DNA of 64,000 nt from Kiritimatiellia bacterium (GTDB lineage: Bacteria > Verrucomicrobiota > Kiritimatiellia > CAIVKH01): the NCBI GenBank assembly GCA_027493775.1, contig JAOSKE010000001.1, positions 741,651 through 805,650 on the forward strand, in the 5' to 3' direction. Both the position numbers and the translations under genes were made by a program. Below, one piece after another: positions 817 to 63,230 of this stretch (position 1 is the first letter of the stretch; each line of letters starts with the position of its first letter). The notes beneath the pieces were generated by a model. It did no database searches. It had not been told where the DNA came from and saw nothing but the letters and a program-made list of their open reading frames with translations.

Positions 817-1719
817 TTAATCGCGGCGAATCACAATCTTCCGACCTGATTTCCTGCGTGGATCGGAGGTGTCATAAACCACGAACTTGATCCCCGGATA
901 TTCCTTGCCCAATTCCTTGTTAATAAATTTTTGAACCGCCTCCACGTTTTTCTGATCATCATCGGAAAAACCTACACTGATCGTTGTCGCCTTGGTTCGA
1001 TTGCGCACCAAACTCAGCGCGTGTTGGACAAACTCACGAATCGCGAACTGCTTCGCCTCCTCCGGACTTTCCGAACCGCCAATTTTGCGCCCCATCAACT
1101 GCTGGAACTCCGGCGACGTCACGCCACGGTACCGGCAGAGGTCAAGGAATTGCGACAGCACCTGCCGATCACTCATTCCGCTCGGATCGCCATCGAAATA
1201 CGCAATATAGCCGCGTAGGTTATCGAGCATCGCCTTCTTTTCTTCCGCCGTGAGCACACGACGAATAAAATACTCAACACCCTTCCGAATCGCCGCCGCA
1301 CTGTGTGAACGCGCGGTGATAATGGCGAATAATCGCCCCTCTATCAGGGCATTACGGAATTTCTGAAAGCTAGGCGCTCCCTTCGCCTTCCCACTGATAA
1401 TCGGACGCAACGCCTTCCGTGTATCATCCAGAAACGCGTCAATCCCACGGCTGCCAATGTCGTAAAAATCGGAGAACGCCAAATCCCAATCATTGCCGAC
1501 CGGGCGAAGGTTCTTCATCTCCCGTCGGACCCTTGCAAACTGCGCCGTTGTGACATCGTGTTTTTTCCAGCCGCTCCCCGATTTCTTTTCGAGATGAATC
1601 TTTGTTGGCATGTGGAGGATATTGTCGTCCCAGTCGAACATATAGTACTTGAGATGGAGCGGACGACCCCAAGTGAATACAGGACTTGCAGTCTTACGAC
1701 TTGTCTTCTTTTTGCTCAT
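817..1719 (-). CDS. HAD-superfamily hydrolase-like protein, possibly phosphatase/nucleotidase-like.
   Basis: 300 aa. FDWDDNI resembles HAD motif I (DxDx[TV]), FAIITARS fits motif II, and GKAKG and GFSDDD fit motifs III and IV. Its start overlaps the upstream amidase stop by 4 nt, so the two are probably co-transcribed. Confidence 0.45.
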   Translation of the reverse strand: MSKKKTSRKTASPVFTWGRPLHLKYYMFDWDDNILHMPTKIHLEKKSGSGWKKHDVTTAQFARVRREMKNLRPVGNDWDLAFSDFYDIGSRGIDAFLDDTRKALRPIISGKAKGAPSFQKFRNALIEGRLFAIITARSHSAAAIRKGVEYFIRRVLTAEEKKAMLDNLRGYIAYFDGDPSGMSDRQVLSQFLDLCRYRGVTSPEFQQLMGRKIGGSESPEEAKQFAIREFVQHALSLVRNRTKATTISVGFSDDDQKNVEAVQKFINKELGKEYPGIKFVVYDTSDPRRKSGRKIVIRRD

Positions 1720-2701
1720 TTACCCTCCAGTTGCGCACGCTTCGCTAAATTCAAATAATTGATCGTACCACGCGCAAGCGATTGCGCCAATGCCTCACGC
1801 CGGGATTCCTGCAAAAGCTGTTCCTCTTCGCGCGCGTTCGAAACAAATGCGCACTCCACCAAGACCGCCGGACACGGCGCATTCTTTAAAACCAGAAAGC
1901 GTGATCGCTTCACACCGCGGTCGTTCGCGCCCAAACGTTGCGTCATCGCGCGTTGGATCTGATATGCCACAACCGTGTTCGCGGCTTCAAAGCGATTTCC
2001 CGGTTGCGTCAAATTCGAAAGCCCGCCCGAGGTGGACTCGTAGCCGGCCGCCGCCAACACATACGTCTCCGCCCCTGCCGCTGCTGTACTGGCTGCGGAG
2101 TTGAGGTGAATACTAATAAACAAATCAGCGCCCCACCGTTGCGCCTTGCGACTGCGCTCGTCCAATTCGACGAAACGATCATTCTCGCGCGTGAGATACA
2201 CCTTGAATCCCGCATTCACCAAATGTGTGCGCAACCGACGCGCCACATCCAGCACCACCCGTTTCTCCTCCACCCCCGCTTCCCCTTCGCGCCCGTGTCC
2301 TTTCCGCCGTGCCCCGGATCAATCACAATCACCCGATGTCGCGCATTTTTCAGATAGCCCTCCGGTCGCTGCAACGGATCCAGCACCACTCGCGCGTCCA
2401 CCTCGCGCAGCGCCCACCGTCCGCGCACACGCACCATCGGAGAGTGCAGCCAGACCAGCGTGCCATCGTAAAGCACCTCCCGCCCGTCCGTTTTGAAAAT
2501 GATTTTTAGCGAGCGGTTTTGCAGCGTAATCCGCTGGGCCGCTGGCCCGACGATGTCCATTCGGTAAAGCGAGGCGATATCGCGCAACGCGATATATTTT
2601 TCCTTTTCGTGCCAAAACACGGGCAAATTCGTCGGCGCAGGCGCTGCGCGCAGGCCCGGCGCAAAAGCGAGGAGGATCGCAATAATCAGCAGGCGTCTCA
2701 T
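1716..2701 (-). CDS. N-acetylmuramoyl-L-alanine amidase (AmiC-like: signal peptide, AMIN domain, Amidase_3 catalytic domain). The frame is interrupted once at a C5 run, either a pseudogene or a sequencing error.
   Basis: The N-terminal frame (2216..2701) reads MRRLLIIAILLAFAPGLRA...VIVIDPGHGGKDTGAKG. The C-terminal frame (1716..2273) reads EEKRVVLDVARRLRTHL...ETYVLAA...VLVECAFVSN. Together these match Amidase_3. The frames switch at the ccccc run at 2273-2277. Confidence 0.7.
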
Positions 2702-2825
2702 AATTAATGCCGCGCATTCTAGGTGAGACCGGCCAGGAAACGAGAACATTGTTGTGCATCCGTGCATTCTGCTTTGCATTGTCTATTTCCACCGCGTGGT
2801 GTAGAGTTACTCCAGCGAGGTTGTT

Positions 2826-4931: not shown

Positions 4932-5043
4932 TTCCAACCCTTGGAAGTCGTTTCAGAACAAAGTTCCAACCCTTGGAACTTTTGGGACGAAAAAACTTCC
5001 AAGGGTTGGAAGTCGGACGCAAAAGGACTTCCAAGGGTTGGAA
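4932..5043. repeat. Four phased copies of a 15-bp palindrome TTCCAACCCTTGGAA (or TTCCAAGGGTTGGAA) at 32-33 bp spacing, in the ECF sigma promoter region.
   Basis: Copies lie at 4932-4946, 4964-4978, 4997-5011 and 5029-5043. The first two have a CCC centre and the last two a GGG centre. The same motif recurs twice at 21942-21989. Confidence 0.5.
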
Positions 5044-6046: not shown

Positions 6047-6739
6047 AGCGCACTCACTCTGCGATCCCGTCGCTTTCGACGAGCCACATCATACCGTCCG
6101 ACAATGATCACAACAAGCACGAGCGTTCCCAAAACAATTTGCGCCTGCGCTTCCGTACACCACGTAATGATCTGGTTGCTGACCGGGCTGTGATAAACAC
6201 CGGGCCGCGCGCGCGCTTCCATTTCTGCCCGGCGATCAGGCGACCAATCGCGCCCCGACTCGCGCATACTGTGGCCGAACCAATGTTCAAGGAGTTGCTG
6301 TTCGCGAAATGCAATGGTGGCTAGGCGCGTATTTTCGCTTGGAGAATGTTGGCTGTCTCGGGAGAACTGATAGTTTCTGTCGCGCCGGAACAGTCGCACA
6401 CGAAATTCGTGGACGAACGGGTCGGAAATCGGCGTGTAGCGGCGCAAAAAGAAATCGTACTGCGCATCCCTGCCAAAGCGATTCATCTTGGATGCAACAT
6501 CCTTGGCGCGAAGTTCATCGGCGCTTTGCAAGTCTTCCTTGGTCAGGCGTGACTTGAACGTGCCCACCCCCCGCATCCGTGTGGAGATAGCCGTATTCGG
6601 TCATGACCTCCTCAAAGATGAATAAGTCGGGGCGATAGACATAAAACATCCGCCACAAGTCCGGCGTGTTCGATGCAATTCCGAACAACAGAATCAAAAT
6701 CAATCGCGTCTGCCGCCACGCCGTACGCGCGGAGCGCAC
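6043..6739 (-). CDS. Paralogous soluble domain of the upstream VanZ-like protein, frame-disrupted. Possibly a continuation of 6700..8556.
   Basis: ORF 6043..6576 aligns to the central domain of the 618-aa protein (YTPISDPFVHEFRVRLFRRDRNYQF versus YTPARDPFAHEAMVHLFRRNHYFTV). ORF 6515..6739 (…LILILLFGIASNTPDLW…) aligns to the TM stretch after a VanZ domain. The frames switch at the C6 run at 6567-6572 and the C5 run at 6774-6778. Confidence 0.4.
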
Positions 6740-8556
6740 ACCAAACGGCTTGCCGCACAGCGCGGGCGCGAAGCCCCCACCGCGAGGCCGAGCTGCATCA
6801 CTGCAACGGCCAATACGTTGATTCCGATGTCGCGGAAATCAAAATACCGGCCCGGTAGCGCCCACTGCACAATCTCATCGCCAATTCCGAGGATGCTGCC
6901 GAGTAACGTAGACACCACGTACGCGCCACGGTCGGGATAGCGCCGACTGAATGCGCGAAAGAGCAGAAGCGAAAGGATGCCATATTCGACGAGGTGCAGT
7001 GCCTCTTCCGGGCGACGCCGCAGGGCCCACGCCGTGGCCCCGTAGAGGATGAACATCCCGGCCAACACAAGACCTTGATGTCGGGTTATTGCGCCGACAT
7101 GCCGACGCAAATATGCAACCGCGCCAATCGCACCGGCAACGATAGCACCTGCGACGATCCATAAGAATGCGGTGATTCCGAAATGAGCGGCGACCCAGTG
7201 TTGAATCGCGCGGGCGAAGGGAATCAAACAGTAGATGAGAAGCGTCCAGAGAACGACCGGTCCCCAATCACGGGCCGGTGGCGACCATCTCGGTTTGCCC
7301 CAGCGAATGAAAATGAAGGCGTCCACGAGTAGAACGCAAAAAATGATCATCCATATCCCACGTTCCGTGAATCGGTGAATGAGATTTTCGCTCACCTCGC
7401 TGGTATAGCGGCGATCCAGTTGGGCATTCGCCTTCAGCGCTTCGTCCAGTTCCTCCGTCCACTGAAAACTCGTGTGCGCGAGGGTGTTTGAGAAGTAGCG
7501 TTCGAGGATTTGGTTTTCGCGATACGCGACATTCGCGTGAAATGCGTAAGACGCAGGGTCGAAGCGGTATTTGGGAAGAACGGTGAAGTAATGATTGCGC
7601 CGGAAGAGATGCACCATCGCCTCGTGCGCGAATGGATCACGGGCGGGTGTATAGACGGCCAGAAAGCGCTTGTACGCAGCAGGTGCTTTGTGCGCTTCAA
7701 TGATCGCGCCCACTTCGGCCCCGCGCTCTTTGTCCACCCAGATGAGATCGTCTCGGTCAAAACGCGAATAGAAGCGCAGGTGGTCCGGGTCTTCGTGACG
7801 CCACCCGTACTCGCTCATCGCTTGTTCGTTATCCAAGAGGAATGTTAGCGCCGGGAGTTGTTTGGAAATTTTCGCTGCGGCATAAGGCGTATTCGAGGCA
7901 CAGCATCCAAACAGCAGCGCTTGGGCGGCGACTAAAATGGTTGCACAGCGAATGCTGGCGGGGCGGATCGCCGATTTGATGAAGGGCGGAACAAAGCCAA
8001 CAGCGAGGCCGATTTGAACAAGCACAATCGCGAGCGCGTTGTGCGAGAGGTCGCGGGGGTCCCAGTAGCGGCCGGGAGTGAACCACTGCAAAATTTCGTC
8101 GGTTGTGCTGACCAGTGCGCCGATCAGCAGGACGTTCAAATAGATGAGCGGGTCGTGTTGGCGATGGGACAGTGCGCGGAAGATCAGGATGCTGAGTATG
8201 CCGTATTCAACGAAGTGAATCGCTTCCGAGGGCGTACTGGTTAGTTTGAAGGTACCGAGGAGAAAGACTCCCGCGATCGCAACGAGCGTTGCAATCCGCG
8301 CCCACGGCATACGTCGCAGTCCGCGCACGAGATGAATGAGGAGCAATACAGCAGCGACGACGATGAAAGCTACGGTGATCCATTGGAGGGATGCGTGGCC
8401 AAGATGCTGATTGAACCAGTCTTGGATTTTCCGTGCGAATGGGACGGTGCAGAAAATAGCGACCGCCCATAACGCAGCATAGAGCCAACTGACTGCTTCT
8501 TTTTTCTCGCGGTGGGGCCTGAAACAAACCGGTTCCTCTTCCGGCCTAACAGCCAA
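6700..8556 (-). CDS. Tandemly duplicated VanZ-like membrane protein, each unit a VanZ-like domain plus a soluble domain.
   Basis: Two VanZ signature blocks: STTDEILQWFTPGRYWDPRDLSHNALAIVLVQIGLAVG and GIGDEIVQWALPGRYFDFRDIGINVLAVAVMQLGLAVG. The N-terminal halves are similar too (…VPFARKIQDWFNQHLG versus IPFARAIQHWVAAHFG). The C-terminal 30 aa look frame-shifted. Confidence 0.6.
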   Translation of the reverse strand: MAVRPEEEPVCFRPHREKKEAVSWLYAALWAVAIFCTVPFARKIQDWFNQHLGHASLQWITVAFIVVAAVLLLIHLVRGLRRMPWARIATLVAIAGVFLLGTFKLTSTPSEAIHFVEYGILSILIFRALSHRQHDPLIYLNVLLIGALVSTTDEILQWFTPGRYWDPRDLSHNALAIVLVQIGLAVGFVPPFIKSAIRPASIRCATILVAAQALLFGCCASNTPYAAAKISKQLPALTFLLDNEQAMSEYGWRHEDPDHLRFYSRFDRDDLIWVDKERGAEVGAIIEAHKAPAAYKRFLAVYTPARDPFAHEAMVHLFRRNHYFTVLPKYRFDPASYAFHANVAYRENQILERYFSNTLAHTSFQWTEELDEALKANAQLDRRYTSEVSENLIHRFTERGIWMIIFCVLLVDAFIFIRWGKPRWSPPARDWGPVVLWTLLIYCLIPFARAIQHWVAAHFGITAFLWIVAGAIVAGAIGAVAYLRRHVGAITRHQGLVLAGMFILYGATAWALRRRPEEALHLVEYGILSLLLFRAFSRRYPDRGAYVVSTLLGSILGIGDEIVQWALPGRYFDFRDIGINVLAVAVMQLGLAVGASRPRCAASRLVCAPRVRRGGRRD

Positions 8557-10531: not shown

Positions 10532-12556
10532 TCGCTCCAGGCGCAACTCTTGAACAACCCGTCCGACGCTGCGTGTCCCGCGTCGTTCTGCTCGGAAATC
10601 CGAATGCGGGAAAAACATCGCTCTTCAACATGCTCTCTGGGCTGCGCGCGAAGACGGCGAATTTCCCCGGAACCACGGTTTCGCACCGGATGGCAAAACT
10701 GGAAACGGCGGGGCGCACGGTCCACCTCATAGATTTGCCCGGCTTGTACAGCTTGCAGCCGACAACGCCGGAAGAGCGGGTCGCGGCTGGCGCATTTAAA
10801 GGAGACTCCTCAATCGGCCCAAAGCCCGACGGCGCAATTCTTGTCGTGGACGCGACCAATCTTGAACGAAACCTGTTTCTGGTGAGTCAGGCGCTGGAAC
10901 ATGACACCCCCGACCGTTCTCGCGCTCAACATGATTGATGCCGCGGATGCGGATGGAATCAAAATTGATGTCGCAGGTCTGGCCATCGAACTCGGTTGCC
11001 CGGTGATTCCCGTCAGCGCGCGAACCGGGCGCGGGATTGACGACCTCAAGCGGGCGCTCGACGAAACTCTGGACAACCATACAGCGCGGAATCCGACAAC
11101 ACTACAAGCGGCGATGGCGTGCCACGCCTGCGCCATCTGTCCGTTTCAAAACCGTTACACGTGGACGGAGGGCGTCGCGAAGCGCCACGCAAAATCGAAA
11201 ACCGAAAAGCCGGACAGACACACCGAGGCGATTGACCGGATACTCACCCACCCCGTCGGCGGACTTGCGGCCTTTCTGTCTGTCATGGCGGTGATGTTCT
11301 ATCTGATTTTCCAGCTCGCAACCGTGCCGATGGATTTAATTGACCACCTCTTCGTCACCTTGGGAAGCGTGGTGGCGAAATGGATCCCGGCAGGTGATTT
11401 GCAAAGCCTAGCGGTCAATGGAATCATCGGAGGCGTCGGCGGGATTCTCGTCTTCCTTCCGCAAATCTGCATTCTTTTCTTCTTCCTCGCGCTGTTGGAA
11501 GACACGGGCTATCTCGCGCGCGCGGCATTTGTGATGGAGCGTTTAATGCGCCGAATCGGATTGCCGGGCAAGGCGTTCGTGCCGCTGCTGTCGGCCCACG
11601 CCTGCGCCATTCCGGCAATCATGTCCACGCGGGTCATTGAGGATCGCCGCGACCGATTCATCACCATTTTGATCGCGCCACTGATGTCCTGCTCCGCGCG
11701 TATTCCGGTGTACACCCTGGTCATCGCGCTGCTCTTCCCCCGCCAGCCCGGCCTCGCGGCGTTGACCTTTCTGGGCGCATACGCGGTGGGAATTGGAATG
11801 GGCCTGCTCGCGGCGTTCGTCATGAAGCGAACAATTCTTCCCGGCGAAGCGCGTCCGCTGGTTCTTGAATTGCCGCGGTATCGGATCCCCGGCGTACGCA
11901 CCGCGTTCCTCCACATGTACGATCAGGCGCGCATGTTCATCAAGCAGGCTGGGACGGTGATTCTGCTGATTTCGATTATTCTCTGGGCGCTGGCGACGTA
12001 TCCAAAATCGGAAACGCCGCAAGAGGTTCATGATATGCGCGCGGAAGCCGCGCAGCTCGCCGCCGCTGGTGACACCGACGGGGCCGCGTCGCTTACAAAA
12101 GAGGCAGCGCATCACGAGGATCAATACGCCCTTGCCAACTCCTACGCCGGTCGCCTCGGCCGTTTCTTTGAACCGGCGCTGGCGCCGTTGGGATTCAACT
12201 GGCAGATCGGCATCGGCATTGTGACTTCGTTCGCCGCGCGCGAGGTGATCGTCTCCACCCTCGCCGTGGTCTATGGCGTGGGTTCTGATCGGGCCGAGGA
12301 GGAGCCGAAATCGCTCTATGACAATCTGCGTTCCGCAAAACGCGCCGATGGATCGCCGGTCTTTACGACGGCCACCGCGTTCAGCCTGCTGATTTTCTAC
12401 ATCCTCGCCGCGCAGTGTCTCGCCACCCAGGTCGTCACGCGCAAAGAGACGGGCAGTTGGAAATGGGCCGCGCTGCAACTCGTCTATATGAACGTGTTGG
12501 CCTACGCCGCTTCGTTCGTGATTTATCAAACACTGCGCGCGTGCGGAATATCCTAG
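10528..12556 (+). CDS. feoB: Ferrous iron transporter FeoB. The G-domain and membrane domain are in two frames.
   Basis: 10528..10938 carries the G domain (VVLLGNPNAGKTSLFN, FPGTTV, IDLPG). 10901..12556 continues TVLALNMIDAADADGIKIDVAGLAIELGCPVIPVSARTGRGIDDL plus gate motifs and a polytopic membrane domain. The frames switch at the C5 run at 10907-10911. Confidence 0.8.
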
Positions 12557-12576: not shown

Positions 12577-15443
12577 TCAGTGCGCGAGCTCGCGCAACTT
12601 TGCTTCGTCGGCGGAGGATATGATTTTTGAATTCGCCAGGGTCTCGCGCGCCAGCGCCGTTGCGGCTGGAGTATCGCCTTTTCGGGCGAGCCAATCTAGT
12701 TGCGCGAAAATCGCGCTGATCAACTCGGGGTTTGCATCCCGCGCAGTTTTAATTTCCTGTCCTGCACGCTCCAAATCGCCCTGTTCAAGAAACGCTCGAC
12801 CGAGCGCCTCGTGGGCGCGGGGATATTGCGGCATGCGCAGAATGGCTTCTGTGGCGGATTGAACAGCCGCATCCAACTCGCCACGTCGGCGCTGAACATT
12901 GGAAAGCTCAACGAGCACGCGGGGCGCACGCTGGCGGGCCAGTTGCTCCTTCAGAACAGCCTCGGCCAGATCCAACCGCCCTCTGGCCCGCAACAAAATC
13001 GCGAGCGCAAAATTTGCATCGTCATTGGTAGGCGCCACGGCAAGTATTTGATTCAACAACCGCTCCACGGAACTCCAGTTCTCCGTCGCCATTTCCAAAT
13101 CCAGCAGACGCTGCATGAGGGGGAAATCACCGGGACGCCGCGCAAGCGCAAGGGCGTAGTATTCGCGTGCGCCGGAAATGTCACCCTGTTGCTGGCGCAT
13201 CCGCCCCATCAGTTCCGAGACGATGGGCCAGTCTTGTCCCAAAAGCTTCATTTGTTTGAAGCTTCGCTCGACGGCGTCCGGACGGCCTTCGCGGAATCCG
13301 GCCAGCGCCGATATGATCCATGCGTCCGCAGAATCCGGGTGCGCGACAAGAAAACGCTCCAGGCGGCGATTTGCTTCGGGCGACTCGCCCTGCTCGAAAA
13401 GTCGCGTGATTATCTCCAAGTCCGGATCACTTTTTTGCGCGACTGCGTTTTCCGCGCCATTTGAGAGCAACTCCACAGCGGCGCGACTGCGTAAATGCCC
13501 ATAACGGACCGCAAGTCGCATCGGGCTGCGCGGCGGCGATCGCTGTAATTCCTCGGCAAGCAAGGTGGATGCGGCTGTGGTGTCCACCGGTTCGTCGGCA
13601 TCCCCGGCCAACACAAGGAGGTTCAACGCCGCGCTCACATTTTGGGGTTCGAAGGAAAGAGCTTTTTCGTACGCGCGGAGCGCTTCAGACGGATGTCCGG
13701 TATATTCCATAAATACTCCAACATCGTTTGCAACATGCGCGACTTGCAGGCGCAATCGCTCGACAAACAATTTACTCGTCGGGAAATTTGTAGAGAGTTG
13801 CGGCAGCGTTTTCTCCACCACATTCCAATAATCAACATTCCGCTGCCAAATCTGCTCCGGATCCAGATCCGAACGTTCCGCAGCGCCGAGGTATGTAATC
13901 CCCATCGGCACCGGCTCCAATCCCTCGATCAGCCAGATGTCCGGTCGGGTTGAAATAGCCAAGCGCTCCACTGCGGTTTCATCCTGCCGCAGCCAGGCTG
14001 AAATCAGCGGGCTGATCCCGGCCAATGCAAGACTTTGAAAACGCGGATCGTCAAATAAAGAGGAAACATACCGGCGATAGGTGAAGGCCTCGGCCTGATG
14101 CAAATTCACGTAGTTGAATTTCGCGCCGCGCCGAAACGCCTCCAGTTGCAGAAGGTCTTCCATCAAACCATCGCCCACCCACAAGGTGCGCCCGGACGCC
14201 AGGCCCAGTGTGGCGCGCGTCAGCGTGGCAGCGGCGGAGGCGGCGGATTTGGTATTGGCAGTCGGCAGATTTCTGGCCCCGACTGCGACAAATAAAATTA
14301 GGGTGCCGACGAGGAGGACAGGAAAAAACGAGCGACGCTTTCTCAGACTCCGCGTTCGAGACGCCACTCGCGCTTCATTGATCAGAGAAAATCGCGCGAT
14401 CAACAGGCCCAAGGAGTATGCGACGAGGAGATAGGGCGTGACCAGCAGGGGCGTTGTCCCCAAGACGCGCCACGGGGAGATTATTCCGTTGAAAAGAATC
14501 GTTAATAAAATACCGAAGAGCACGAGATAGAAAAGCAACATCCGCGCATTGGCTTCTTCGCGCCGTTGCGACAGCCAAAGAACGGCCCACGGCACGGTCG
14601 TCCCCACGAACAATAGCAGCCAGCCGTGGCGCGGCACGCTGGAAAGAACCAGTCGCTTCCGGTCCAACAAAAAGGTCTTCAGGACATCCCAGTAGGATGT
14701 CGCCTCGCGCCAGGTCGCCGCAGAAAGGTGATAATACTCTCGAACAGCGAGCAGGAAAAGAGAGGCGCCTAGAAGGCCGAGCAGCAAAGTGGGAGCCCCA
14801 GACGCGCGGGGTTAGCTGCCGCATTAAGAAGGACTGGTAAAACACGTAGCACGCGATCAATGGGAGAAATATCGCGAATGTGGCCACTTCCGCCAAGCCC
14901 ACGCCATAAGCGAACGCAAACGCAAAAAGCCAGGCCGGCCGGGTGGTGATGCGGTAACGCTGAAGAAGAAACAAGCTGCCGATAAGGAGAAGGAGGTCGA
15001 ACGAGGCAGGGTGAGCGCGGTTGGAAACAAGCCAAACCGGAATGCTGGTCATCAGGAATCCCGCCCCCGCCCCCGCTGCGAGTATTTTGATCCAAGGATT
15101 GCTCTGGGCCGTCGCCTTCTGAACGGACCCCGGACAGTAGCATCAGATATACGAGCGCAACACTTCCTGCGCCACACACGGCGCTAAAGAGATTCAGCGA
15201 GCGCGCAAAATGTGCCGGGGTCAGATGCGCAAGCGAGCGCGCAATCCACGACCACACCGGATATTCCATCGAAGGGAACGGCGCAATGTGGAGCATCTGC
15301 ACCAACCAGGAAGCGCTGATCTCAGGATCCACCTGAGACGAACCTGTGACAACAAATAGAGCAAGCGCCCCAAGCGACAAAATGACCGCAATCAGGCGCG
15401 CGCTTTGCTCAGCCTTTGAAGACAAGGTATTTTCGGCAGACAT
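12577..15443 (-). CDS. Large membrane protein. N-terminal polytopic domain (DUF2723/TMEM260-like glycosyltransferase-type fold, tentative), C-terminal TPR repeats. Two frame breaks.
   Basis: Three ORFs chain together. 14769..15443 gives the N-terminus (MSAENTLSSKAEQSARLIAVILSLGALALFVV…DPEISASWLVQMLHIAPFPSMEYPVWSWIARSL). 14375..15052 gives TM helices. 12577..14787 gives more TM helices and then many TPR-like repeats (LALARRPGDFPLMQRLLDLEMATENWSSVERLLNQILAVAPTNDDANFALAILLRARGRLDLAEAVL…). The frame changes coincide with C-rich runs at 15061-15076 and 14796-14799. Confidence 0.55.
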
Positions 15444-15915: not shown

Positions 15916-17052
15916 CTATTCGCGGTTGATCAGCTCAAGGAGTTCAGCCGGAAGCGGCTGGACGGAAGCTAGGATCGCCTGCGTCTCGCCATGCTCGGAA
16001 GGCACGGTCAAACGCTCTCCGGCTGTGTGCCCGATCAGTGTCTCCGCCATTCGAGAGTTAGACGAAATGATGCCGTGTTCGGGATCGCCATCCCAAACGC
16101 CGAGGATGGAGTAGGTCTCCTTCTTACCATCGCCATATTCGAGCGTAACCACGGTACCCAGCCCCGCCTTGTCGAACGGGAGCTCGCGGAAATCGCTCGG
16201 GGCGACGCGATGCAGATCGGCCATCAGTTCGTCGCGCCGACGGAAGAGAATCGTCTGCGCCTCTTTTGCTGCCTTGTATTCATGGTTTTCGCGCAAATCG
16301 CCGTAGCTGCGCGCAAGGGCAATGTCTTTTGCAACCTGTGGAATTTCGACATTGATGATGCGATCCAGCAAATGCTGGCGTTCGCGGTAGCTCCGATGCG
16401 ATGTGATCGGCCCGCGTGACGCAACCGGCTGATCATCGCGAGCCGCAAGCAACGGGGCGAGATCCGGAGAGTTCTTCACCATGTGTCCCAGCACGGATGC
16501 GCGGTCAAGGGCGGGCCACCCGGTGGACTCCTTAATGCGCAACAGCAGGTGCTCCAGCTCGGGCCGGGATAACCGGCTCATCAAATCCTTGAGCCATTCC
16601 CGCTTTGAGAACCGTTCGCGGAGCTGGTTCTGCGCCTTCAGGCGTTCGCCGCTCGCCTCCTGTTCGGCCGCCTCCACCATAAGCTGCGCCATCAGGGCAA
16701 TCGAGCCAAGCTTCCACTCTTCGCACTTTTCAACATGGCGTCCAAGCCAGCTCAACAATTCCAATGAAGGCGTCCGAGCGTCAAAGGCGTGTTTGAAGAT
16801 TTTTGCGGCTTCCTGCTCGTAATTTGTTTCCTGGAGAAACAGCATGGCCTCGTTGAGAATCCCTATTTCGGAACCGCTCCAAACGCGCAAGCAGCAACGC
16901 CTGCACTGCTTCCTGATTTCTGCCGTACAGATAGTGCAGAAATAAACGCAGCGGGCGTGAGGGCAGTTGCTTGATCGTCTCGTCAAACACGCGGCCTTGG
17001 AAGAAATCAGGAACCCGCGCGCCATCCAGTTTCGCATCAAGTCCAAGCTCAC
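15916..17052 (-). CDS. GreA/GreB C-terminal domain protein, probably the C-terminal part of a large Gre-like factor.
   Basis: YGDLRENHEYKAAKEAQ matches the GreA YGDLSENAEYxAAKE motif, and …VVTLEYGDGKKETYSILGVWDGDPEHGIIS… is an FKBP-like C-terminal domain. The first roughly 60 aa of the ORF (Cys/Arg-rich) look out of frame. Confidence 0.6.
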   Translation of the reverse strand: MSLDLMRNWMARGFLISSKAACLTRRSSNCPHARCVYFCTICTAEIRKQCRRCCLRVWSGSEIGILNEAMLFLQETNYEQEAAKIFKHAFDARTPSLELLSWLGRHVEKCEEWKLGSIALMAQLMVEAAEQEASGERLKAQNQLRERFSKREWLKDLMSRLSRPELEHLLLRIKESTGWPALDRASVLGHMVKNSPDLAPLLAARDDQPVASRGPITSHRSYRERQHLLDRIINVEIPQVAKDIALARSYGDLRENHEYKAAKEAQTILFRRRDELMADLHRVAPSDFRELPFDKAGLGTVVTLEYGDGKKETYSILGVWDGDPEHGIISSNSRMAETLIGHTAGERLTVPSEHGETQAILASVQPLPAELLELINRE

Positions 17053-18177: not shown

Positions 18178-19055
18178 ATGTTCCCACCCATGTCAACACC
18201 ACGAGTCCTCACTGTACGCCAAGTTGAACGAGGCACAAGCCTTGAACAATTCCTCATTATGCGCCTCGGCGTATCCCGCAAACAGGCCAAACGAATGCTG
18301 GACGAGCGCCGCGTCTTTGTGAACGGAAAACGAATCTGGATGGCCCGCCATGAATTGCGCTCGGGCGACGAAGTGGAGACGCCCCCGCGCCCGGCTCGAA
18401 ACCCGCCTCGCCCCGCCCCGCCACCCTTCGTGTCATCTATGAGGACTCACTCATTTTCGTAGTGGACAAACCCGCTGGCCTGCTGAGTACCGGCCCCGAT
18501 AGCGTTGAATCGCGCCTTCGCGCAATGCATCCGGAAATTTTACCCGTACACCGACTGGACCGCGAAACCAGCGGCTGCCTCATGTTCGCCCGAACTCCGG
18601 AAAGTCAGGCGACAATGGAAAAGGAATTTGAAGGGCGGCGTGTTGAAAAAGTGTACCAAGCAATTGCGATTGGACTCTTCCCCCCCACCCTCACCAAGCT
18701 GGAACGACCGGTCGGCGGACTCACCGCGCTCACCGAATTTCGCATCGTGCGTCGCAACCCCGTCGCATCTCATATTGAAGCCCGACCCCGCACCGGTCGA
18801 ACTCATCAAATTCGCGTGCATCTCCAACAAGCGGGGTTTCCACTCGCCGGTGATCGAATGCACTCCACGCGCGCCGTGAAGGACGAATTGATTCGGCAGC
18901 TTCCGCGTCAAATGCTTCACGCGTGGCGACTGTCCTGGAACGACCCCGTCAGTGGAGAACGGAAGAAAGCGCAGGCCACGCCTCCAGTAGATTTTCGCGA
19001 CACCCTCGTCGCGTTGCGGCTCGCGCCCCTGCCTAAACGCGGTGGCGGAAGGTGA
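18178..19055 (+). CDS. RluA-family 23S rRNA pseudouridine synthase (S4 domain plus catalytic domain). Frame break between the domains.
   Basis: 18178..18462 carries the S4 domain ([33 protein letters not shown]). 18462..19055 carries the catalytic domain ([19 protein letters not shown]…VEKVYQAIA). The alternative frame reads …[21 protein letters not shown] across the junction. The shift lies in ccccgccccgccaccc at 18411-18426. Confidence 0.75.
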
Positions 19056-19260: not shown

Positions 19261-19694
19261 AGTTTCCTTTACGTTTTTTCAAACAACCGCGCACCATAGA
19301 CTCCCCCACCCACAAAGCGCAAGCGGTATGCACGGATTATTTGTGATCTCCAAGGTATCGGATTTTGCCATTCCTGAACTAAAATATTGCGATGGTTTCT
19401 CCGTAGCCGTCCGCGCTGAAGGCGGCGGGTGAACCAAGCCCGCGCGGTCAACACGGGCGACTACAGAAAACGACCCCTATCGCGCTCTATTGCCAGATAA
19501 ACATCTCATCATTTCCAACTACGGTTTTAACTGATAAACGCCTACTACCTGTGGTTCGTCCCCGACTCCAAGGTTCGCGCCATAAAATACAACAAGAGCG
19601 CCCGGTCACACGGCTGCTTGACTCACCCAAACGAACCGCTAGTATCGCCGACCAACGAACTCACATTTCGCCGCGTCTCACAGGATTCGCAATC

Positions 19695-26666: not shown

Positions 26667-26713
26667 TTCGATACGCTATCTGATAGACTAGCTATTAGCA
26701 AGAGGAAATTATC

Positions 26714-28366: not shown

Positions 28367-28595
28367 TACGCCATCCAAAAGAACGAAGGCGCGGGCAAAA
28401 ATGAGCAATCGAACGAATACAGTATGGCAATGCGCATGCCACCCCGCACGTTACGTATGTGTTGTGGCGAAGCGACTGCATATAAGAATGCAGGTCTGTA
28501 AGTTTTGTTGAGCGATGAGTTTTTTAAAGAGGGGTTTTTCAGCAGAACCGAATGTCTAGACTTGACCCCAACTGCTCCCCCAACTGCTCCCCAAC

Positions 28596-54358: not shown

Positions 54359-55000
54359 TTACGGCTGCGGAAGCAGGTTTTGGCATGCTGTTCTACAGTT
54401 GTGGCCGATCAGATTATACTCCGGCTGCATAGCCGTATATGCCTCGGCACGTATGTCGGCTGCTGTTGCCTCCTCGGGACTAACCGGATGAGCAACATAG
54501 TCATCACTGGGAAGCAACTGTTTGTCGAGTGGCAGAGGGGGGCCGTAAGTAGCCAGACCGGGAACCCAATCAAGCAGCGTCGAGAGTGTTAAGTCATTCG
54601 CTGGCCGGAAGTCGAATCTGCGATAGCCATCTGGCGTCGGAATTAGCAGATATGTGTGATTAATTCCTTCTGGATTCATTCCAGTGTAGACGGCATTGCC
54701 TTCTCCCAATCCCAACGAATCCACCCAATTGACCGGGTCGCCATGACAGTAGAGATAGAGGTTCGCTTGGCCACCTCCGAATAGGATGGGGTCTTTGGCT
54801 AGCCATCTTCCAGTCATCGGATCATAATCCCGATACCCGAACCACGTGAGACCCGTATCCGGGTCGTAGAGCCCCACCCGCAAACCCGAACGGCTGAAAG
54901 CCCGGATTTGTGTCCTGTAGGACGTTCCCCCATTCGTCGTAGTCCATCCGCTGCGCAACCGCGCCGGTCTGGGCATCCACAACCAGCCGCACGCTGCCAA
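54359..55000 (-). CDS. Orphan Rhs C-terminal fragment with a distinct CT4 toxin domain. One frame break.
   Basis: The core …[58 protein letters not shown] is followed by a roughly 120-aa CT ending …[20 protein letters not shown]. The upstream part ([47 protein letters not shown]) is in another frame (ORF 54822..55073), with an extra C in the run at 54872-54875. Confidence 0.6.
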
Positions 55001-55021
55001 GATGATCCGTAACGTCTATTC

Positions 55022-55877: not shown

Positions 55878-57862
55878 TTTTTGGGGTTAGTTCATTTTCA
55901 ATTGCCTCTCGTGCGGTCTGCTCTAGAAGTGCTTTAATCGGATGAGCCAACAGCGTCTTTAGATTAGGCCCATCATTAATAAAATCTGCAATACCCTCAG
56001 AAGCGGGCCCCTCGCCCAGAAGTGTGGTCACAATCTTCCTGATAAGCTCTTCGCTTGCCTGAATCGCTTGCCCGGGAACCTTCAGTAGTTCTTTCGCTTG
56101 TTCTGCGAGTTGGGAGGCGACGTTGTCGTAAGCATCTACAAGATGCTCCCAAACCGCACCTGCAAAATTATTAAGCGTATATTCTCCAGCTTTCCAAGCC
56201 GCATCGCGTGGGTTCTCTCCCAACCCAAGCGGGTCGATATAATTGACCGGATCCCCATGACAGTACAGATACAGATTTGCCTGTCCGCCCCGAAACAGTA
56301 TGGGGTCTTTGGCCAGCCATCTCCCAGTCATCGGATCATAATCCCTGTAGCCAAATCGGACCAAGCCCGTGCCAGGGTCATACATACCTCCCGCGAACCC
56401 AAATGGCTGAAATCCCGGATTTGTGTCCTCCAGAACATTGCCCCATTCGTCGTAGTCCATCCGCTGCGCAACGGCGCCGGTCTGGGCATCCACAACCAGC
56501 CGCACGCTGCCAAGATGATCTGTAATGATCCGATATGTCGTTCCCGACCGCACCATATAGTCCGGCACATTCACTCGCGTCGCGTACACGAACCGGGACT
56601 TCACGCTTCCATCCGCATTCAACTCCGCAATCGGCTTCAGGAAGTCCTGATAGACCAGCCGTTGCACGGTCGTGCCATTCACACTCTTGGCGATGCGCCG
56701 CCCCAGAGGGTCAACGCTGTACCGAATCGCAGAAACCGTGGAGCTGACGGCAAGCAGGCTGCCCCGAGCGTCATAGCGGTATGCGGTTCCGACTCCGCCA
56801 ACGCTCTTGTTCGTCAGCGTGCCACGGTCATCATGCTGGTAGGTCGTCGCCCCGTAGCTCAACAGGCGATCCTGCGCGTCGTAGTGACCCACAAGCGACG
56901 ACCCGCTCAGTATGGCATTTGTGCGGTTCCCATTTGCGTCGTATTGATATTTTGCGCGCAGCGAACCATTGGTATGCACCTCAATCAGCCGCCCCGCCGC
57001 ATCATAGGAATAGGTGTATAGGTTCGTCTGATTCTGAATGCGCTCCACCCGGCTGGTCATCCGCCACATTGCATCGTACCCATAATCGAATGACAGCAGA
57101 TTTGTTCCGCCAAAATCACTGGCGGATGCCTGTAGCTCCCCAAATTTGCTAATTTGTCGCATATCGCTCACATCGCCCAGAACCGTGTTCGTCACAAACC
57201 CACTTGCGGCATCCCGATTCAGCCGCAATTGACCGGCATTGGTCAACAATAGATCAAGATCATAGCCGTATCCAATACCATCACCATTGAGCGTAATCTG
57301 GCTCAAGCGGAGGTCCGGACTCCATGCATACCCTACCCGTCCCGTGACAGAGCCACCCCCAGGTCACGTTTGTCAGCAGGCTGCCATCCCAGTCTAAAGC
57401 CAGAGAGGACCCGCTTGTGGCAACGATGGAAATCGGGTGCCCGTTTGCGTAGGCGACCGCAATCCGGTTCTCCGGCCACCGGACCTGACTCGCCTGCCCC
57501 GCCGCATTGTACTGGTTGGTGATGGTCGCCCCGCCCGGCAGCCGTATGCTCGTCACCTGGCGGCGCGCATTCCACGTGAGGAGAAGATTCGTGTCCACAC
57601 CAGCCAAGCCGGGGGCCGAATAGCGACCCAGAAGACCAACGTTGTTGTAGTCCATCTGATGTTCAGCCTTATCGGGCGGCCGTACTCCGCCCAGGTTGGA
57701 AGACTTGTCGTACCGCAGTCCGATGGTCTTCGCATCCGGTTGCAGCAGATTCGTGACCCGACCGGCGGGATCGGAATCCAGCCGGTACGACTGCAGCAAA
57801 CTGTTGGTGAGCGCGCCCCAAAATCCATTCGTTGTATAACCGAGTCCAAAAGCACGACGCAC
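55852..57862 (-). CDS. Rhs fragment (about 670 aa of YD repeats and core) ending in the CT3 toxin. One frame break at a C5 run.
   Basis: ORFs 57281..57862 and 55852..57306 abut. The paralogue 60837..63230 reads straight through the same region with cccc (62233-62236) where this copy has ccccc (57356-57360). Core …[35 protein letters not shown]…, then CT3 identical to 35973..36692. Confidence 0.7.
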
Positions 57863-60789: not shown

Positions 60790-60836
60790 TGTGGCGGTGA
60801 TATATTTTTTCTAATCGCTCTATTATCTATCATTAA

Positions 60837-63230
60837 TCACTTGAGGCGAGGAGTTGATGTTACCAAGGGATATGGCTCGAAGTTGATTAAATCATTTACT
60901 TCAATCAAATGATCCGCAACTGGTCCGTCACGCCAGTTGTCTACGACATCATCGATCTGATCAGGAACAGTTAACAGCTCCCAGATACCAAATATGACGA
61001 GTACAGCACCACCACCGATTACCAAAGGAAGACTTCCGATGGCCGCACCGCCACCAGCTACAATGCCTCCAAGCGCAGAAACAATTCCCTGCCATAGCAG
61101 CCCATTGGGATCAATATAGTTAATTGGATCCCCGTGGCAATAGAGGTACAGGTTGGCTTGGCCTCCTTCAAACAAGATAGGGTCTTTGGCCAGCCACCTC
61201 CCAGTCATCGGAGCATAATCGCGGTATCCGAACCGCGTCAGACCCGTGTCTGGGTCGTATAAACCTCCCGCAAACCCGAACGGCTGGAATCCCGGATTGG
61301 TGTCCTGCAACACGTTCCCCCATTCGTCGTAGTCCATCTGCTGCGCAACCGCGCCGGTCTGGGCATCCACAACCAGCCGCACGCTGCCAAGATGATCTGT
61401 AATGATCCGATATGTCGTTCCAGAACGCACCATATAATCCGGTACATTCACTCGCGTAGCGTACACGAACCGGGACTTCACGCTTCCATCCGCATTCAAC
61501 TCCGCAATCGGCTTCAGGAAGTCCTGATAGACCAGCCGTTGCACGGTCGTGCCATTCACACTCTTGGCGATGCGCCGCCCCAGAGGGTCAACACTGTACC
61601 GAATCACAGAAACCGTGGAGCTGACGGCAAGCAGGCTGCCCCGAGCGTCATAGCGGTATGCGGTTCCGACTCCGCCAACGCTCTTGTTCGTCAGCGTGCC
61701 ACGGTCGTCATACTGATATGTCGTCGCCCCGTAGCCCAACAGGCGATCCTGCGCGTCGTAGTGGCCCACAAGCGACGACCCGCTCAGTATGGCATTTGTG
61801 CGATTCCCATTTGCGTCGTATTGATATTTCGCGCGCAGCGAACCATTGGTATGCACCTCAATCAGCCGCCCCGCCGCATCATAGGAATAGATGTATAGGT
61901 TCGTCTGATTCTGAATGCGCTCCACCCGGCTGGTCATCCGCCACATTGCATCGTACCCATAATCGAATGACAGCAGATTGGTTCCGCCAAAATCACTGGC
62001 GGATGCCTGTAGCTCCCCAAACTTGCTAATTTGTCGCATATCGCTCACTTCGCCCAGCACCGTGTTCGTCACAAACCCACTTGCCGCATCCCGATTCAGC
62101 CGCAATTGACCGGCATTGGTCAACAATAAATCAAAATCATAGCCGTATCCAATGCCATCACCATTGAGCGTAATCCGGCTCAAGCGGAGGTCCGGACTCC
62201 ATGTATAGCCTACCCGTCCCGTGACAGAGCCACCCCAGGTCACATTTGTCAGCAGGCTGCCATCCCAGCCTAAAGCCAGAGAGGGCCCGCTTGTGGCAAC
62301 GATGGAAATCGGGTGCCCGTTTGCGTAGGCGACCGCAATCCGGTTCTCCGGCCACCGGACCTGACTCACCTGCCCCGCTGCATTGTACTGGTTGGTGATG
62401 GTCGCCCCGCCCGGCAGCCGTATGCTCGTCACCTGGCGGCGCGCATTCCACGTGAGGAGAAGATTCGTGTCCACCCCAGCCCAGCAGGGTGCCGAATAGC
62501 GACCCAGAAGACCAACGTTGTTGTAGTCCATCTGATGTTCAGCCTTATCGGGCGGCGTCACCCCGCTCAGATTGGAGGACTTGTCGTACCGCAGTCCGAT
62601 GGTCTTCGCATCCGGTTGCAGCAGATTCGTGACCCGACCGGCGGGATCGGAATCCAGCCGGTACGACTGCAGCAAACTGTTGGTGAGCGCGCCCCAAAAT
62701 CCATTCGTTGTATAACCGAATCCAAAAGCACGACGCACACCTCCAGTGCCGATCGCGAACTGCTGCAACCGACCGTGAACATCATATGCAACATCGATGG
62801 GATACAACCCCGGTAGCTCTATCCGCTCCGCGCGCCCGTTTGCATTATAGATTACCCTGCGGGTTCTGCCCTCGGGACTCGTCAGCGACGCCATTCGATT
62901 CGACGCCTGATACGACGCTACATACGCTGGTCGGTCATTAATGCTGAAGACATTCGTGAAGGAAACGAGGCTTAACACGTCACCGGGATCCGACAACGAG
63001 GCGGCTCGGGATCTATTGGGGTCGAGTCTAGACATTTTATATTTAGCGCCTTCTCGCAATACAGATAAACGCATATTCGGGACGAATAGGTAGCTTAGGG
63101 GGTTGTTCGAGCAAGTTGTCACTGGGTTTGGTGACGAGAATAAGGCGATGGACTCAGAGTAGGAGTCGAAGCCACAGCAAGAAAGCTCATTCTGTTGCAA
63201 CATGTCTAGCTTCCCACGATCTTGCGCCAT
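60837..63230 (-). CDS. Rhs fragment (about 700 aa of YD repeats and core) with a glycine-zipper, membrane-type CT5 toxin domain. The ORF initiates inside the REP-like element and reads across its terminus.
   Basis: The N-terminal roughly 60 aa (MAQDRGKLDMLQQNELSCCGFDS…[12 protein letters not shown]) are encoded by element 63017-63393; MSRLDP is the translated palindrome AATGTCTAGACTCGACCCC. The Rhs body is about 97% identical to 55852..57862. The C-terminus …[71 protein letters not shown]… is a GxxxG-rich hydrophobic tip. Confidence 0.7.
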   Translation of the reverse strand: MAQDRGKLDMLQQNELSCCGFDSYSESIALFSSPNPVTTCSNNPLSYLFVPNMRLSVLREGAKYKMSRLDPNRSRAASLSDPGDVLSLVSFTNVFSINDRPAYVASYQASNRMASLTSPEGRTRRVIYNANGRAERIELPGLYPIDVAYDVHGRLQQFAIGTGGVRRAFGFGYTTNGFWGALTNSLLQSYRLDSDPAGRVTNLLQPDAKTIGLRYDKSSNLSGVTPPDKAEHQMDYNNVGLLGRYSAPCWAGVDTNLLLTWNARRQVTSIRLPGGATITNQYNAAGQVSQVRWPENRIAVAYANGHPISIVATSGPSLALGWDGSLLTNVTWGGSVTGRVGYTWSPDLRLSRITLNGDGIGYGYDFDLLLTNAGQLRLNRDAASGFVTNTVLGEVSDMRQISKFGELQASASDFGGTNLLSFDYGYDAMWRMTSRVERIQNQTNLYIYSYDAAGRLIEVHTNGSLRAKYQYDANGNRTNAILSGSSLVGHYDAQDRLLGYGATTYQYDDRGTLTNKSVGGVGTAYRYDARGSLLAVSSTVSVIRYSVDPLGRRIAKSVNGTTVQRLVYQDFLKPIAELNADGSVKSRFVYATRVNVPDYMVRSGTTYRIITDHLGSVRLVVDAQTGAVAQQMDYDEWGNVLQDTNPGFQPFGFAGGLYDPDTGLTRFGYRDYAPMTGRWLAKDPILFEGGQANLYLYCHGDPINYIDPNGLLWQGIVSALGGIVAGGGAAIGSLPLVIGGGAVLVIFGIWELLTVPDQIDDVVDNWRDGPVADHLIEVNDLINFEPYPLVTSTPRLK

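What the first reader, a model, noticed from the sequence alone, without database searches (positions are those of the whole stretch)
1716..62240. At least ten single-base frameshifts, essentially all inside C/G homopolymers: probably a systematic sequencing artefact rather than pseudogenisation
Frame breaks lie at the following sites. Amidase, C5 at 2273-2277. VanZ locus, C6 at 6567-6572 and C5 at 6774-6778. feoB, C5 at 10907-10911. TPR/membrane gene, C-runs at 14796-14799 and 15061-15076. rluA, 18411-18426 ccccgccccgccaccc. ArnT-like gene, 21666-21669. terC, C5 at 24680-24684. Main rhs, T9 at 42936-42944. rhs CT4 fragment, 54872-54875. rhs fragment, 57356-57360. The last case is directly demonstrable: the paralogue has gagccaccccaggtcac at 62226-62242 and reads through, while this copy has gagccacccccaggtcac with one extra C. 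The same holds for the immunity gene at 35580: tttaaag here versus tttaaaag in the intact copy at 55470. Essential-looking genes such as feoB, terC and rluA are affected and remain otherwise intact on both sides. So homopolymer-length error, from nanopore or ion-semiconductor type chemistry, is the parsimonious explanation. Annotations that call these genes pseudogenes are probably wrong. It also means apparently disrupted toxin and immunity genes may be functional.
Basis: seen in the sequence. Interest (0 to 1): 0.55.

Follow-up and report, generated by a model that had tools for sequence, protein, structure and literature searches.

The report
Homopolymer sequencing errors break genes
The many broken genes in this stretch of an uncultured Kiritimatiellia genome are almost all one-base assembly errors, typical of long-read sequencing, because 7 to 16 independent assemblies of the same species carry every checked gene intact.

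Summary

- **Source.** The window comes from a 1.4-Mb contig of an NCBI MAG, "Kiritimatiellae bacterium", locus tag M5U15_.
- **Comparison set.** Forty-six contigs from other public assemblies (Logan and ENA) match the window at 97–100% identity. They cover 1–28.5 kb and 40.8–48.3 kb, plus short pieces at 35.5–36.4 and 55.4–56.4 kb.
- **Indels.** I tallied 31,152 bp against the closest contigs (1–24.9 kb and 41.2–47.5 kb). The window has 15 private one-base indels there (12 insertions, 3 deletions) and at most about 3 substitutions.
- **Support.** At 14 of the 15 sites, every one of the 7–16 covering contigs disagrees with the window and encodes an intact gene.
- **Placement.** Nine errors are in C3–C6 runs. 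All three true C6 runs were miscalled, while none of 310 G runs was. Three are in A or T runs, and three are not in homopolymers.
- **Context.** The errors depend on sequence context: GAGCCCA became GAGCCCCA three times, and TTCGAAC was hit twice.
Two were misplaced (15061–76 is really 15120; 18411–26 is really 18382–86). Six indels in the compared stretches were missed.
- **Annotation.** GenBank lists the fragments as separate proteins, not pseudogenes.
- **Caveat.** One other assembly also has T9 at the rhs site, so that tract may vary in nature.

Ordinary artefact; low interest.

The parts
2273..2277 (.). C5 in the window, C6 in 10 of 10 other assemblies. One C is missing, which splits a 344-aa Amidase_3 gene into 185-aa and 187-aa ORFs.
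4990..4995 (.). A6 in the window, A5 in 10 of 10 assemblies. It appears to lie upstream of the ECF sigma gene as called in the other assemblies.
6567..6572 (.). C6 in the window, C5 in 11 of 11 assemblies. It lies in an 826-aa VanZ-like gene.
6771..6778 (.). Two inserted bases: GCGAGCCCCACC in the other assemblies became GCGAAGCCCCCACC (A1 to A2 and C4 to C5) in 11 of 11 contigs. Together with 6567 this adds 3 bases, so the frame is restored after about 200 nt.
8495..8500 (.). T6 in the window, T5 in 12 of 12 assemblies. It lies in the N-terminal codons of the VanZ-like gene.
10907..10911 (.). C5 in the window, C4 in 16 of 16 assemblies. It splits feoB (641/675 aa when intact) into 136-aa and 551-aa ORFs.
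14796..14799 (.). C4 in the window, C3 in 7 of 7 assemblies (context GAGCCCA). It lies in a 954-aa TPR/TMEM260-like gene.
15117..15124 (.). A T inserted in TTC^GAAC (window TTCTGAAC), absent from 8 of 8 assemblies. This is the true second break in the TPR gene.
16867..16874 (.). A G inserted in TTCGAAC (window TTCGGAAC), absent from 8 of 8 assemblies. It splits a 721-aa GreA/GreB-domain gene into 378-aa and 439-aa ORFs.
18382..18386 (.). C5 in the window, C6 in 7 of 7 assemblies. This is the true break in the pseudouridine synthase gene.
19303..19307 (.). C5 in the window, C4 in 8 of 8 assemblies. By my coordinate mapping it lies just upstream of infA, so it is intergenic.
21666..21669 (.). 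C4 in the window, C3 in 10 of 10 assemblies (context GAGCCCA). It splits a 536-aa GT39/PMT_2 gene into the 480-aa and 65-aa proteins that were deposited.
24680..24684 (.). C5 in the window, C6 in 7 of 7 assemblies. It truncates the N-terminus of terC (355 aa when intact).
28523..28525 (.). TTTAAAG in the window. The second IS copy at 30986 and the one covering contig (L107) both have TTTAAAAG. It lies near the end of the IS, outside the transposase ORF. Probably an error.
35595..35597 (.). A3 in the window, A4 in the paralogue at 55476 and in all four short-read contigs spanning this repeat. It lies three codons before the stop of the immunity gene and extends the ORF from 135 to 173 aa (167 aa as deposited). 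The contigs cannot be assigned to one copy with certainty.
42936..42944 (.). T9 in the window, T8 in 8 assemblies, T9 in 1 assembly (L113). It splits the main rhs gene (about 1300 aa when repaired) into 266-aa and 1062-aa ORFs.
54872..54875 (.). C4 in context GAGCCCCA. Removing one C restores the RHS core motif [14 protein letters not shown] and agrees with two paralogues. No short-read copy of this cassette was found, so this is inferred.
57356..57360 (.). C5 in the window, C4 in the 94%-identical paralogue at 62232. Removing one C gives a single stop-to-stop ORF of 705 codons. No short-read copy was found, so this is inferred.

Best explanation
The frame breaks are consensus errors in a long-read, most probably nanopore-type, metagenome assembly that was not fully polished. 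They are not mutations.

- **Error pattern.** The basecaller or polisher mis-estimated short homopolymer lengths, above all C runs as written on the contig's + strand. C6 became C5, and C3, C4 and C5 each gained one base. It also made one-base insertions in a few specific sequence contexts: GAGCCCA, TTCGAAC, and TTTAAAAG losing one A.
- **Consequence.** Each error shifts the frame, so the gene caller split intact genes into two or three ORFs. These were deposited as separate proteins.
- **True genes.** The real organism carries intact amidase, VanZ-like, feoB, TPR/TMEM260-like, GreA-like, pseudouridine synthase, GT39 and terC genes. The main rhs gene is very probably intact too.

Shown here: the other length state and intact ORFs in independent assemblies at 15 sites.

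Inferred: the sequencing platform, and the errors at 54872, 57356, 35597 and 28525.
For: 1. **Provenance.** The window maps to an NCBI MAG contig of 1,401,245 bp. Contigs of that length in a metagenome point to long reads.
2. **Independent assemblies.** Forty-six contigs from more than 20 SRA or ENA samples match the window at 97–100% identity. At 14 sites in 1–25 kb, all 7–16 covering contigs carry the other length. They encode full-length genes of 344, 826, 641/675, 954, 721, 253, 536 and 355 aa.
3. **Indels without substitutions.** Contigs with 0–1 substitutions against the window still differ at every indel site in their range. Examples are L082, L085, L094, L096, L121 and L123–L126. Over 31,152 tallied bp there are 15 indels (0.48 per kb, about Q33) and at most about 3 substitutions.
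4. **Dependence on run length and base.** C6 was wrong in 3 of 3 runs, C5 in 1 of 11, C4 in 3 of 81 and C3 in 2 of 324. G runs of 3 or more were wrong in 0 of 310 (Fisher p = 0.012). P(at least 9 of 15 in C runs) = 2.5e-9.
5. **Context specificity.** All three GAGCCCCA on the + strand are frameshift sites, and no GAGCCCA remains on that strand. Both non-homopolymer insertions in the TPR and GreA-like genes fall in TTCGAAC.
6. **No sign of selection.** Thirteen of the 15 indels lie in coding sequence, about what coding density predicts.
7. **Repair.** Reversing the 15 verified and 4 inferred edits restores a single ORF for every affected gene.
8. **Cluster membership.** Truncated FeoB, GT39 and amidase proteins occur only in this MAG. 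Intact forms occur on dozens of contigs.
9. **Known behaviour.** Nanopore consensus sequences retain homopolymer indels that fragment gene calls (PMC9262707). C and G runs are called worse than A and T runs, and accuracy drops above length 4–5 in high-GC bacteria (PMC8486125).
Against: - I could not retrieve the platform or assembly method of the MAG.
- I did not verify the read type of the Logan runs. I infer their accuracy only from their mutual agreement and their intact ORFs.
- Twelve of the 15 errors are insertions. Raw nanopore reads tend instead to shorten homopolymers (PMC8486125). So a polishing step, rather than raw basecalling, may be responsible.
- At 42936, one independent assembly (L113, SRR22825182) also has T9 and the same 266-aa product. 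It has no other indel against its relatives over 4–5 kb. That site may be a real polymorphism.
- Sites 54872 and 57356 have no short-read counterpart.
Confidence: 0.93

Rival explanations
1. Real strain-specific frameshift mutations. The sampled lineage would be decaying, or would be a mismatch-repair-deficient hypermutator accumulating homopolymer indels, so the genes are true pseudogenes.
For: - The indels sit in homopolymers, which are also the natural hot spots for slippage.
- One site (T9) recurs in another assembly.
Against: - There are 15 indels against at most about 3 substitutions relative to near-identical contigs. From general knowledge, mismatch-repair-deficient lineages accumulate more substitutions than indels.
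- About one third of the genes in 25 kb would be inactivated with no other lesions.
- At the 14 sites in 1–25 kb, none of the 7–16 other assemblies shares the window's state.
- Identical 7-mer contexts recur.
- The errors fall only in C runs, never G runs, as written on the contig's + strand.
Confidence: 0.03
2. Phase variation. The homopolymer tracts would be contingency loci that switch genes on and off by slipped-strand mispairing, and the MAG captured the 'off' states.
For: The T8/T9 tract in the rhs toxin gene is long enough. It is found as T8 in 8 assemblies and as T9 in the window and in L113.
Against: - The other tracts are only 3–6 nt long.
- They lie in housekeeping genes such as feoB, terC, rluA-like and amidase.
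- They show no length variation among 7–16 assemblies.
- Three errors are not in repeats at all.
Confidence: 0.02
3. The window is right and the other assemblies are wrong, for example through k-mer assembly collapse or consensus drawn from mixed strains.
For: The Logan contigs come from automated assemblies, and I did not check the read type of the runs.
Against: - Assemblies from more than 20 samples, which differ from one another by up to 3% in substitutions, all agree on the indel state.
- Their state gives full-length ORFs with complete Pfam domains.
- It also matches relatives at 65–77% amino-acid identity.
Confidence: 0.01

Closest known systems
Homopolymer indel errors in Oxford Nanopore (R9.4.1-era) consensus assemblies and MAGs, which cause fragmented gene calls
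   Same: - One-base indels concentrated in homopolymers.
- C runs are affected more than A/T runs, and the error rate rises with run length.
- Genes are split into adjacent ORFs.
- Residual accuracy is about Q33.
- The errors disappear in short-read assemblies (PMC9262707, PMC8486125).
   Different: - The platform is not documented for this MAG.
- Insertions dominate (12 of 15), whereas raw nanopore reads mostly shorten runs.
- Errors fall in C runs but never in G runs on the contig's + strand. This suggests a polisher-specific, orientation-dependent bias.
Phase-variable homopolymer tracts (contingency loci) in surface and toxin genes
   Same: The A8/A9 tract in the rhs coding strand shows two lengths among independent assemblies. 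The longer one truncates the toxin.
   Different: - Only 1 of 9 other assemblies has the 'off' length.
- No within-sample mixture has been shown.
- The window's nearest relatives have the 'on' length.
- All other sites have short, invariant tracts.
Bacterial pseudogenes formed by frameshift during genome decay
   Same: Adjacent ORFs cover one ancestral gene.
   Different: - No accompanying substitutions, stop codons or deletions.
- Except at the rhs T9 tract, the state is not shared with any related strain.
- Reversing single bases restores every ORF.

Membership tests
Long-read consensus indel artefact | The indels are private to this assembly and absent from independent assemblies of the same strain or species. 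| tested here: met
   At 14 sites, 7–16 of 7–16 covering contigs differ from the window. At 42936, 8 of 9 differ.
Long-read consensus indel artefact | The errors are enriched in homopolymers, with dependence on run length and base. | tested here: met
   C6 3/3, C5 1/11, C4 3/81, C3 2/324. Twelve of 15 lie in runs of 3 or more (P = 9e-8).
Long-read consensus indel artefact | Indels far outnumber substitutions relative to the true sequence. | tested here: met
   15 indels against at most about 3 substitutions over 31,152 bp. Several contigs have 0 substitutions.
Long-read consensus indel artefact | The errors recur in the same sequence context, that is, they are systematic. | tested here: met
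   GAGCCCA became GAGCCCCA at 3 of 3 sites. TTCGAAC was hit twice. TTTAAAAG became TTTAAAG twice.
Long-read consensus indel artefact | The assembly was made from noisy long reads without complete short-read polishing. | not testable with these tools
   Only the 1.4-Mb contig length points to long reads. No method record or paper was found.
Phase-variable contingency locus | Tract length is polymorphic among or within populations. | tested here: not met
   No variation at 14 sites among 7–16 assemblies. The exception is 42936, with T8 in 8 assemblies and T9 in 1. That site alone is inconclusive.
Phase-variable contingency locus | The tract is long enough for frequent slippage (about 7 nt or more). 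| tested here: not met
   Tracts are 1–6 nt in the other assemblies, except the T8 tract in rhs.
True pseudogene (genome decay) | The lesion is shared by related strains, or is accompanied by further degradation. | tested here: not met
   At 14 of the 15 verified sites no covering assembly shares the lesion. At 42936 one of nine (L113) does. A single-base repair restores full ORFs identical to those of relatives.
Programmed ribosomal frameshift or transcriptional slippage | A frameshift site conserved in orthologues. | tested here: not met
   Orthologues at 65–100% identity are all in frame across the sites.

The most novel reading that the evidence does not exclude
The A8/A9 tract (T8/T9 on the + strand, 42936–42944) in the N-terminal part of the main rhs toxin gene may be a real slippage-prone on/off switch.

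An independent and otherwise indel-free assembly from another sample (L113, SRR22825182) carries the same 9-nt 'off' length. It also encodes the same 266-aa truncated product as the window. Eight other assemblies carry the 8-nt 'on' length.
Probability: 0.15. Interest if true: 0.35.

Novelty: not a real feature. Interest (0 to 1): 0.08.

Why it matters
- **For this window.** The feoB, terC, amidase, GT39, pseudouridine synthase, GreA-like, VanZ-like and TPR genes are intact, and the main rhs toxin very probably is. No inference of gene loss, or of disrupted toxin and immunity pairs, should be drawn.
- **For databases.** The fragments have entered NCBI nr as ordinary proteins, for example a 551-aa "ferrous iron transport protein B". 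At about one indel per 2 kb, roughly a third of this MAG's genes may be affected.
- **Biology.** No new biology is involved.

Tried and rejected
- **Genome-contig scan with FeoB.** The closest genomes were only 77% identical. They confirmed read-through but could not give base-level truth.
- **Corrected CT4 cassette and corrected rhs fragment searched against 5.8 billion proteins.** The only near-identical hits were the MAG's own fragments. Sites 54872 and 57356 could therefore not be checked against short reads.
- **Literature searches for the MAG, its SRA runs or its platform.** Nothing specific was found.
- **TTCGAA methylation motif as the cause of the two non-homopolymer errors.** I considered this. 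Three other TTCGAA sites (1837, 2014, 13648) are correct, and only the TTCGAAC orientation is hit. I therefore report it as a context effect and make no methylation claim.
- **Antisense ORF 50280–51542 overlapping the 2042-aa gene.** I suspected a frameshift. It is a spurious ORF opposite an ISL3 transposase.
- **Metagenome-contig scan.** Not used, because near-identical relatives were seen only in Logan and ENA, not JGI.

Full report
**What is in the sequence**

The frame breaks are real.
- Pfam domains are split between adjacent same-strand ORFs. Amidase_3 profile positions 1–19 and 21–171 lie on ORFs 2216–2779 and 1716–2273. FeoB_N positions 2–106 and 105–155 lie on 10528–10938 and 10901–12556. 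S4 and PseudoU_synth_2 lie on 18178–18462 and 18462–19055.
- Relatives at 65–77% amino-acid identity, from a scan of species-representative genomes, read straight through the feoB and rluA breaks.
It lies in a roughly 730-aa GreA/GreB-domain protein.

**Where the window comes from**

Intact ORFs of the window are exact matches to proteins MCZ7591257 to MCZ7591308. These belong to an NCBI MAG named "Kiritimatiellae bacterium", locus tag M5U15_, on a contig of 1,401,245 bp.

The same proteins also occur on many contigs of Logan assemblies of SRA runs, and on one ENA metagenome assembly.

**The decisive comparison**

A protein search with the 551-aa FeoB fragment found a 675-aa protein that is 100% identical over the shared part. 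Three Logan contigs that encode it match the window at 99.7–99.98% nucleotide identity. All three have C4 where the window has C5 at 10907.

I extended this with look-ups of neighbouring genes. That gave 46 contigs from more than 20 samples. They cover 1–28.5 kb and 40.8–48.3 kb, plus short pieces at 35.5–36.4 and 55.4–56.4 kb. Indels were tallied over 31,152 bp (1–24.9 kb and 41.2–47.5 kb) against the closest contigs.

The window-private indels are these:

| Window position | Window state | Other assemblies | Contigs differing / covering |
|---|---|---|---|
| 2273 | C5 | C6 | 10/10 |
| 4990 | A6 | A5 | 10/10 |
| 6567 | C6 | C5 | 11/11 |
| 6772 | extra A | no extra base | 11/11 |
| 6774 | C5 | C4 | 11/11 |
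| 8500 | T6 | T5 | 12/12 |
| 10907 | C5 | C4 | 16/16 |
| 14796 | C4 | C3 | 7/7 |
| 15120 | TTCTGAAC | TTCGAAC | 8/8 |
| 16870 | TTCGGAAC | TTCGAAC | 8/8 |
| 18382 | C5 | C6 | 7/7 |
| 19303 | C5 | C4 | 8/8 |
| 21666 | C4 | C3 | 10/10 |
| 24680 | C5 | C6 | 7/7 |
| 42936 | T9 | T8 | 8/9 |

For 6774, the eleventh contig (L089) places its gap at 6779, which is an alignment ambiguity.

In the other assemblies the genes are whole:

| Gene | Intact length (aa) |
|---|---|
| Amidase_3 | 344 |
| VanZ-like | 826 |
| FeoB | 641/675 |
| TPR/TMEM260-like | 954 |
| GreA-like | 721 |
| Pseudouridine synthase | 253 |
| GT39/PMT_2 | 536 |
| TerC | 355 |

The rhs gene reads through the T tract in those assemblies.

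**Why this is error and not mutation**

1. The closest contigs have 0–1 substitutions against the window over 3–19 kb. They still differ at every indel site in their range. Over 31,152 tallied bp there are 15 indels and at most about 3 substitutions.
2. More divergent strains, with 1–3% substitutions, share the intact state with the closest contigs. The window's state is therefore private, not ancestral.
3. The errors track run length and base.
   - C6 was wrong in 3 of 3 runs, C5 in 1 of 11, C4 in 3 of 81 and C3 in 2 of 324.
   - G runs of 3 or more were wrong in 0 of 310 (Fisher p = 0.012).
   - P(at least 9 of 15 in C runs) = 2.5e-9.
4. The errors are context-specific.
   - The only three GAGCCCCA on the + strand are all frameshift sites, and no GAGCCCA remains on that strand.
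   - The two non-homopolymer insertions in the TPR and GreA-like genes both fall in TTCGAAC.
   - Two A4-to-A3 losses both fall in TTTAAAAG.
5. Thirteen of the 15 indels are in coding sequence. That is about what coding density predicts, so there is no sign of selection.
6. Reversing the edits restores one ORF per gene.

The rate is 0.48 indels per kb, about Q33. The pattern matches published descriptions of nanopore consensus errors:
- homopolymer indels that fragment gene calls unless polished with short reads (PMC9262707);
- C and G runs called worse than A and T runs, with accuracy dropping above length 4–5 in high-GC bacteria (PMC8486125).

The 1.4-Mb contig argues against ion-semiconductor reads. 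I could not find the MAG's method record, so the platform is inferred.

- Eight sites are exactly right: 2273, 6567, 6774, 10907, 14796, 21666, 24680 and 42936.
- Two were misplaced.
  - The second TPR break is at 15120, not 15061–76.
  - The rluA break is at 18382–86, not 18411–26.
- Six indels in the compared stretches were missed: 4990, 6772, 8500, 15120, 16870 and 19303.
- The VanZ-like gene carries four errors. The three insertions at 6567, 6772 and 6774 add 3 bases in total. That is why the two large ORFs share a frame.
- The deposited annotation does not call pseudogenes. The fragments are separate proteins:
  - MCZ7591258, a 185-aa amidase;
  - MCZ7591271, a 551-aa FeoB;
  - MCZ7591280 and MCZ7591281, the GT39 gene as 480 + 65 aa;
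  - MCZ7591296, a 266-aa rhs N-terminal fragment.

**Sites that remain inferred**

- **54872.** It is in the same GAGCCCCA context. Removing one C restores the conserved RHS motif [14 protein letters not shown] and agrees with two paralogues.
- **57356.** The window has C5 against C4 in the 94%-identical paralogue. The repair gives a single stop-to-stop ORF of 705 codons.
- **No outside check for either.** No near-identical copy of either cassette exists in the protein collection outside this MAG.
- **35597 (immunity gene).** The window has A3. The paralogue has A4. All four short-read contigs spanning this repeat have A4, including three that are marginally closer to the 35.5-kb copy. The 167-aa extended form occurs only in the MAG.
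- **28525.** It shows the same TTTAAAAG-to-TTTAAAG change relative to the second IS copy and to the one covering contig, an ENA assembly.

**The one real caveat**

A Logan contig from another sample (L113, SRR22825182) is 97% identical to the window. It also has the 9-nt tract and encodes the same 266-aa truncated product.

L113 has no other indel against four related contigs over 2.3–5 kb, so it looks accurate. Eight other assemblies have 8 nt.

The window's T9 is still most likely an error. Its nearest relatives, with 0–1 substitutions, have T8. This is also the longest tract in the region. Even so, natural T8/T9 variation in the rhs gene cannot be excluded.

**Verdict**

Noticed in passing
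window 1–24930 and 41249–47479: All nine verified C/G-run errors are C runs as written on the contig's + strand (9 of 420 C runs of 3 or more, against 0 of 310 G runs; Fisher p = 0.012). The reverse-complement contexts (TGGGCTC at 3154; GTTCGAA at 1836 and 13647) are correct. The error process is therefore orientation-dependent. This fits a polishing model better than it fits biology.
   Followed up: partly
window 14793, 21663, 54869; 15117, 16867; 28523, 35595: The errors recur in the same contexts. GAGCCCA became GAGCCCCA at 3 of 3 sites. There are one-base insertions inside TTCGAAC at two sites. TTTAAAAG became TTTAAAG at two sites.
   Followed up: partly
window 42936–42944; L113 5343–5360: The rhs A8/A9 tract is 9 nt long in one independent assembly (SRR22825182) and 8 nt in eight others. 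It may be a natural slippage polymorphism in a toxin gene.
   Followed up: partly
window 52502–53864 (+): A DDE_Tnp_1_4 transposase is split. ORF 52502–52819 matches profile positions 2–93 and ORF 52656–53864 matches 94–427. The frame change lies near 52800–52815 (KLACGR | LLDDSALASQPTLSRFEN) and is not in a homopolymer. No reference copy was available, so error and real inactivation cannot be told apart.
   Followed up: partly
window 1716–2273, 10901–12556, 20349–21791, 42831–43631: The truncated ORFs are deposited in NCBI nr as ordinary proteins: MCZ7591258, MCZ7591271, MCZ7591280 (its 65-aa remainder is deposited as MCZ7591281) and MCZ7591296. Full-length forms of the FeoB and GT39 proteins exist only in unannotated Logan assemblies. 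The 266-aa MCZ7591296 has one Logan counterpart of the same truncated length (P0334, L113).
   Followed up: yes
window 26444–31032: Two tandem copies of a roughly 2.1-kb IS (transposases of 550 and 549 aa, 98.6% identical) differ by an in-frame 3-bp indel at 27476–27478. The ENA contig L107 carries a single copy at this place.
   Followed up: no
window 31677–63230: This is an rhs locus. It has one main rhs gene (39725–43631) followed by orphan RHS C-terminal and immunity cassettes at 37616–39379, 35973–36692, 54359–55272, 55852–57862 and 60837–63230. These are interspersed with ISL3 (50637–51950), DDE_Tnp_1_4 (52.5–53.9 kb) and IS4 (58181–59377) transposases. The ORF after the 587-aa cassette (36906–37619) is an Rce1-like CAAX protease-family protein and may be an immunity protein.
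   Followed up: partly
window 15907 and 22930: One-base indel differences are shared by only a subset of the other assemblies (5 of 9 and 4–5 of 8). They look like natural strain polymorphisms. I did not map either site onto the gene calls; 15907 lies in the short gap between two ORFs.
   Followed up: no
window 50280–51542 (-): A 420-aa ORF with no family match lies antisense to the ISL3 transposase in a 62% GC stretch. It is a spurious ORF, not a fragment of the neighbouring 2042-aa Laminin_G_3/TSP3 protein.
   Followed up: yes
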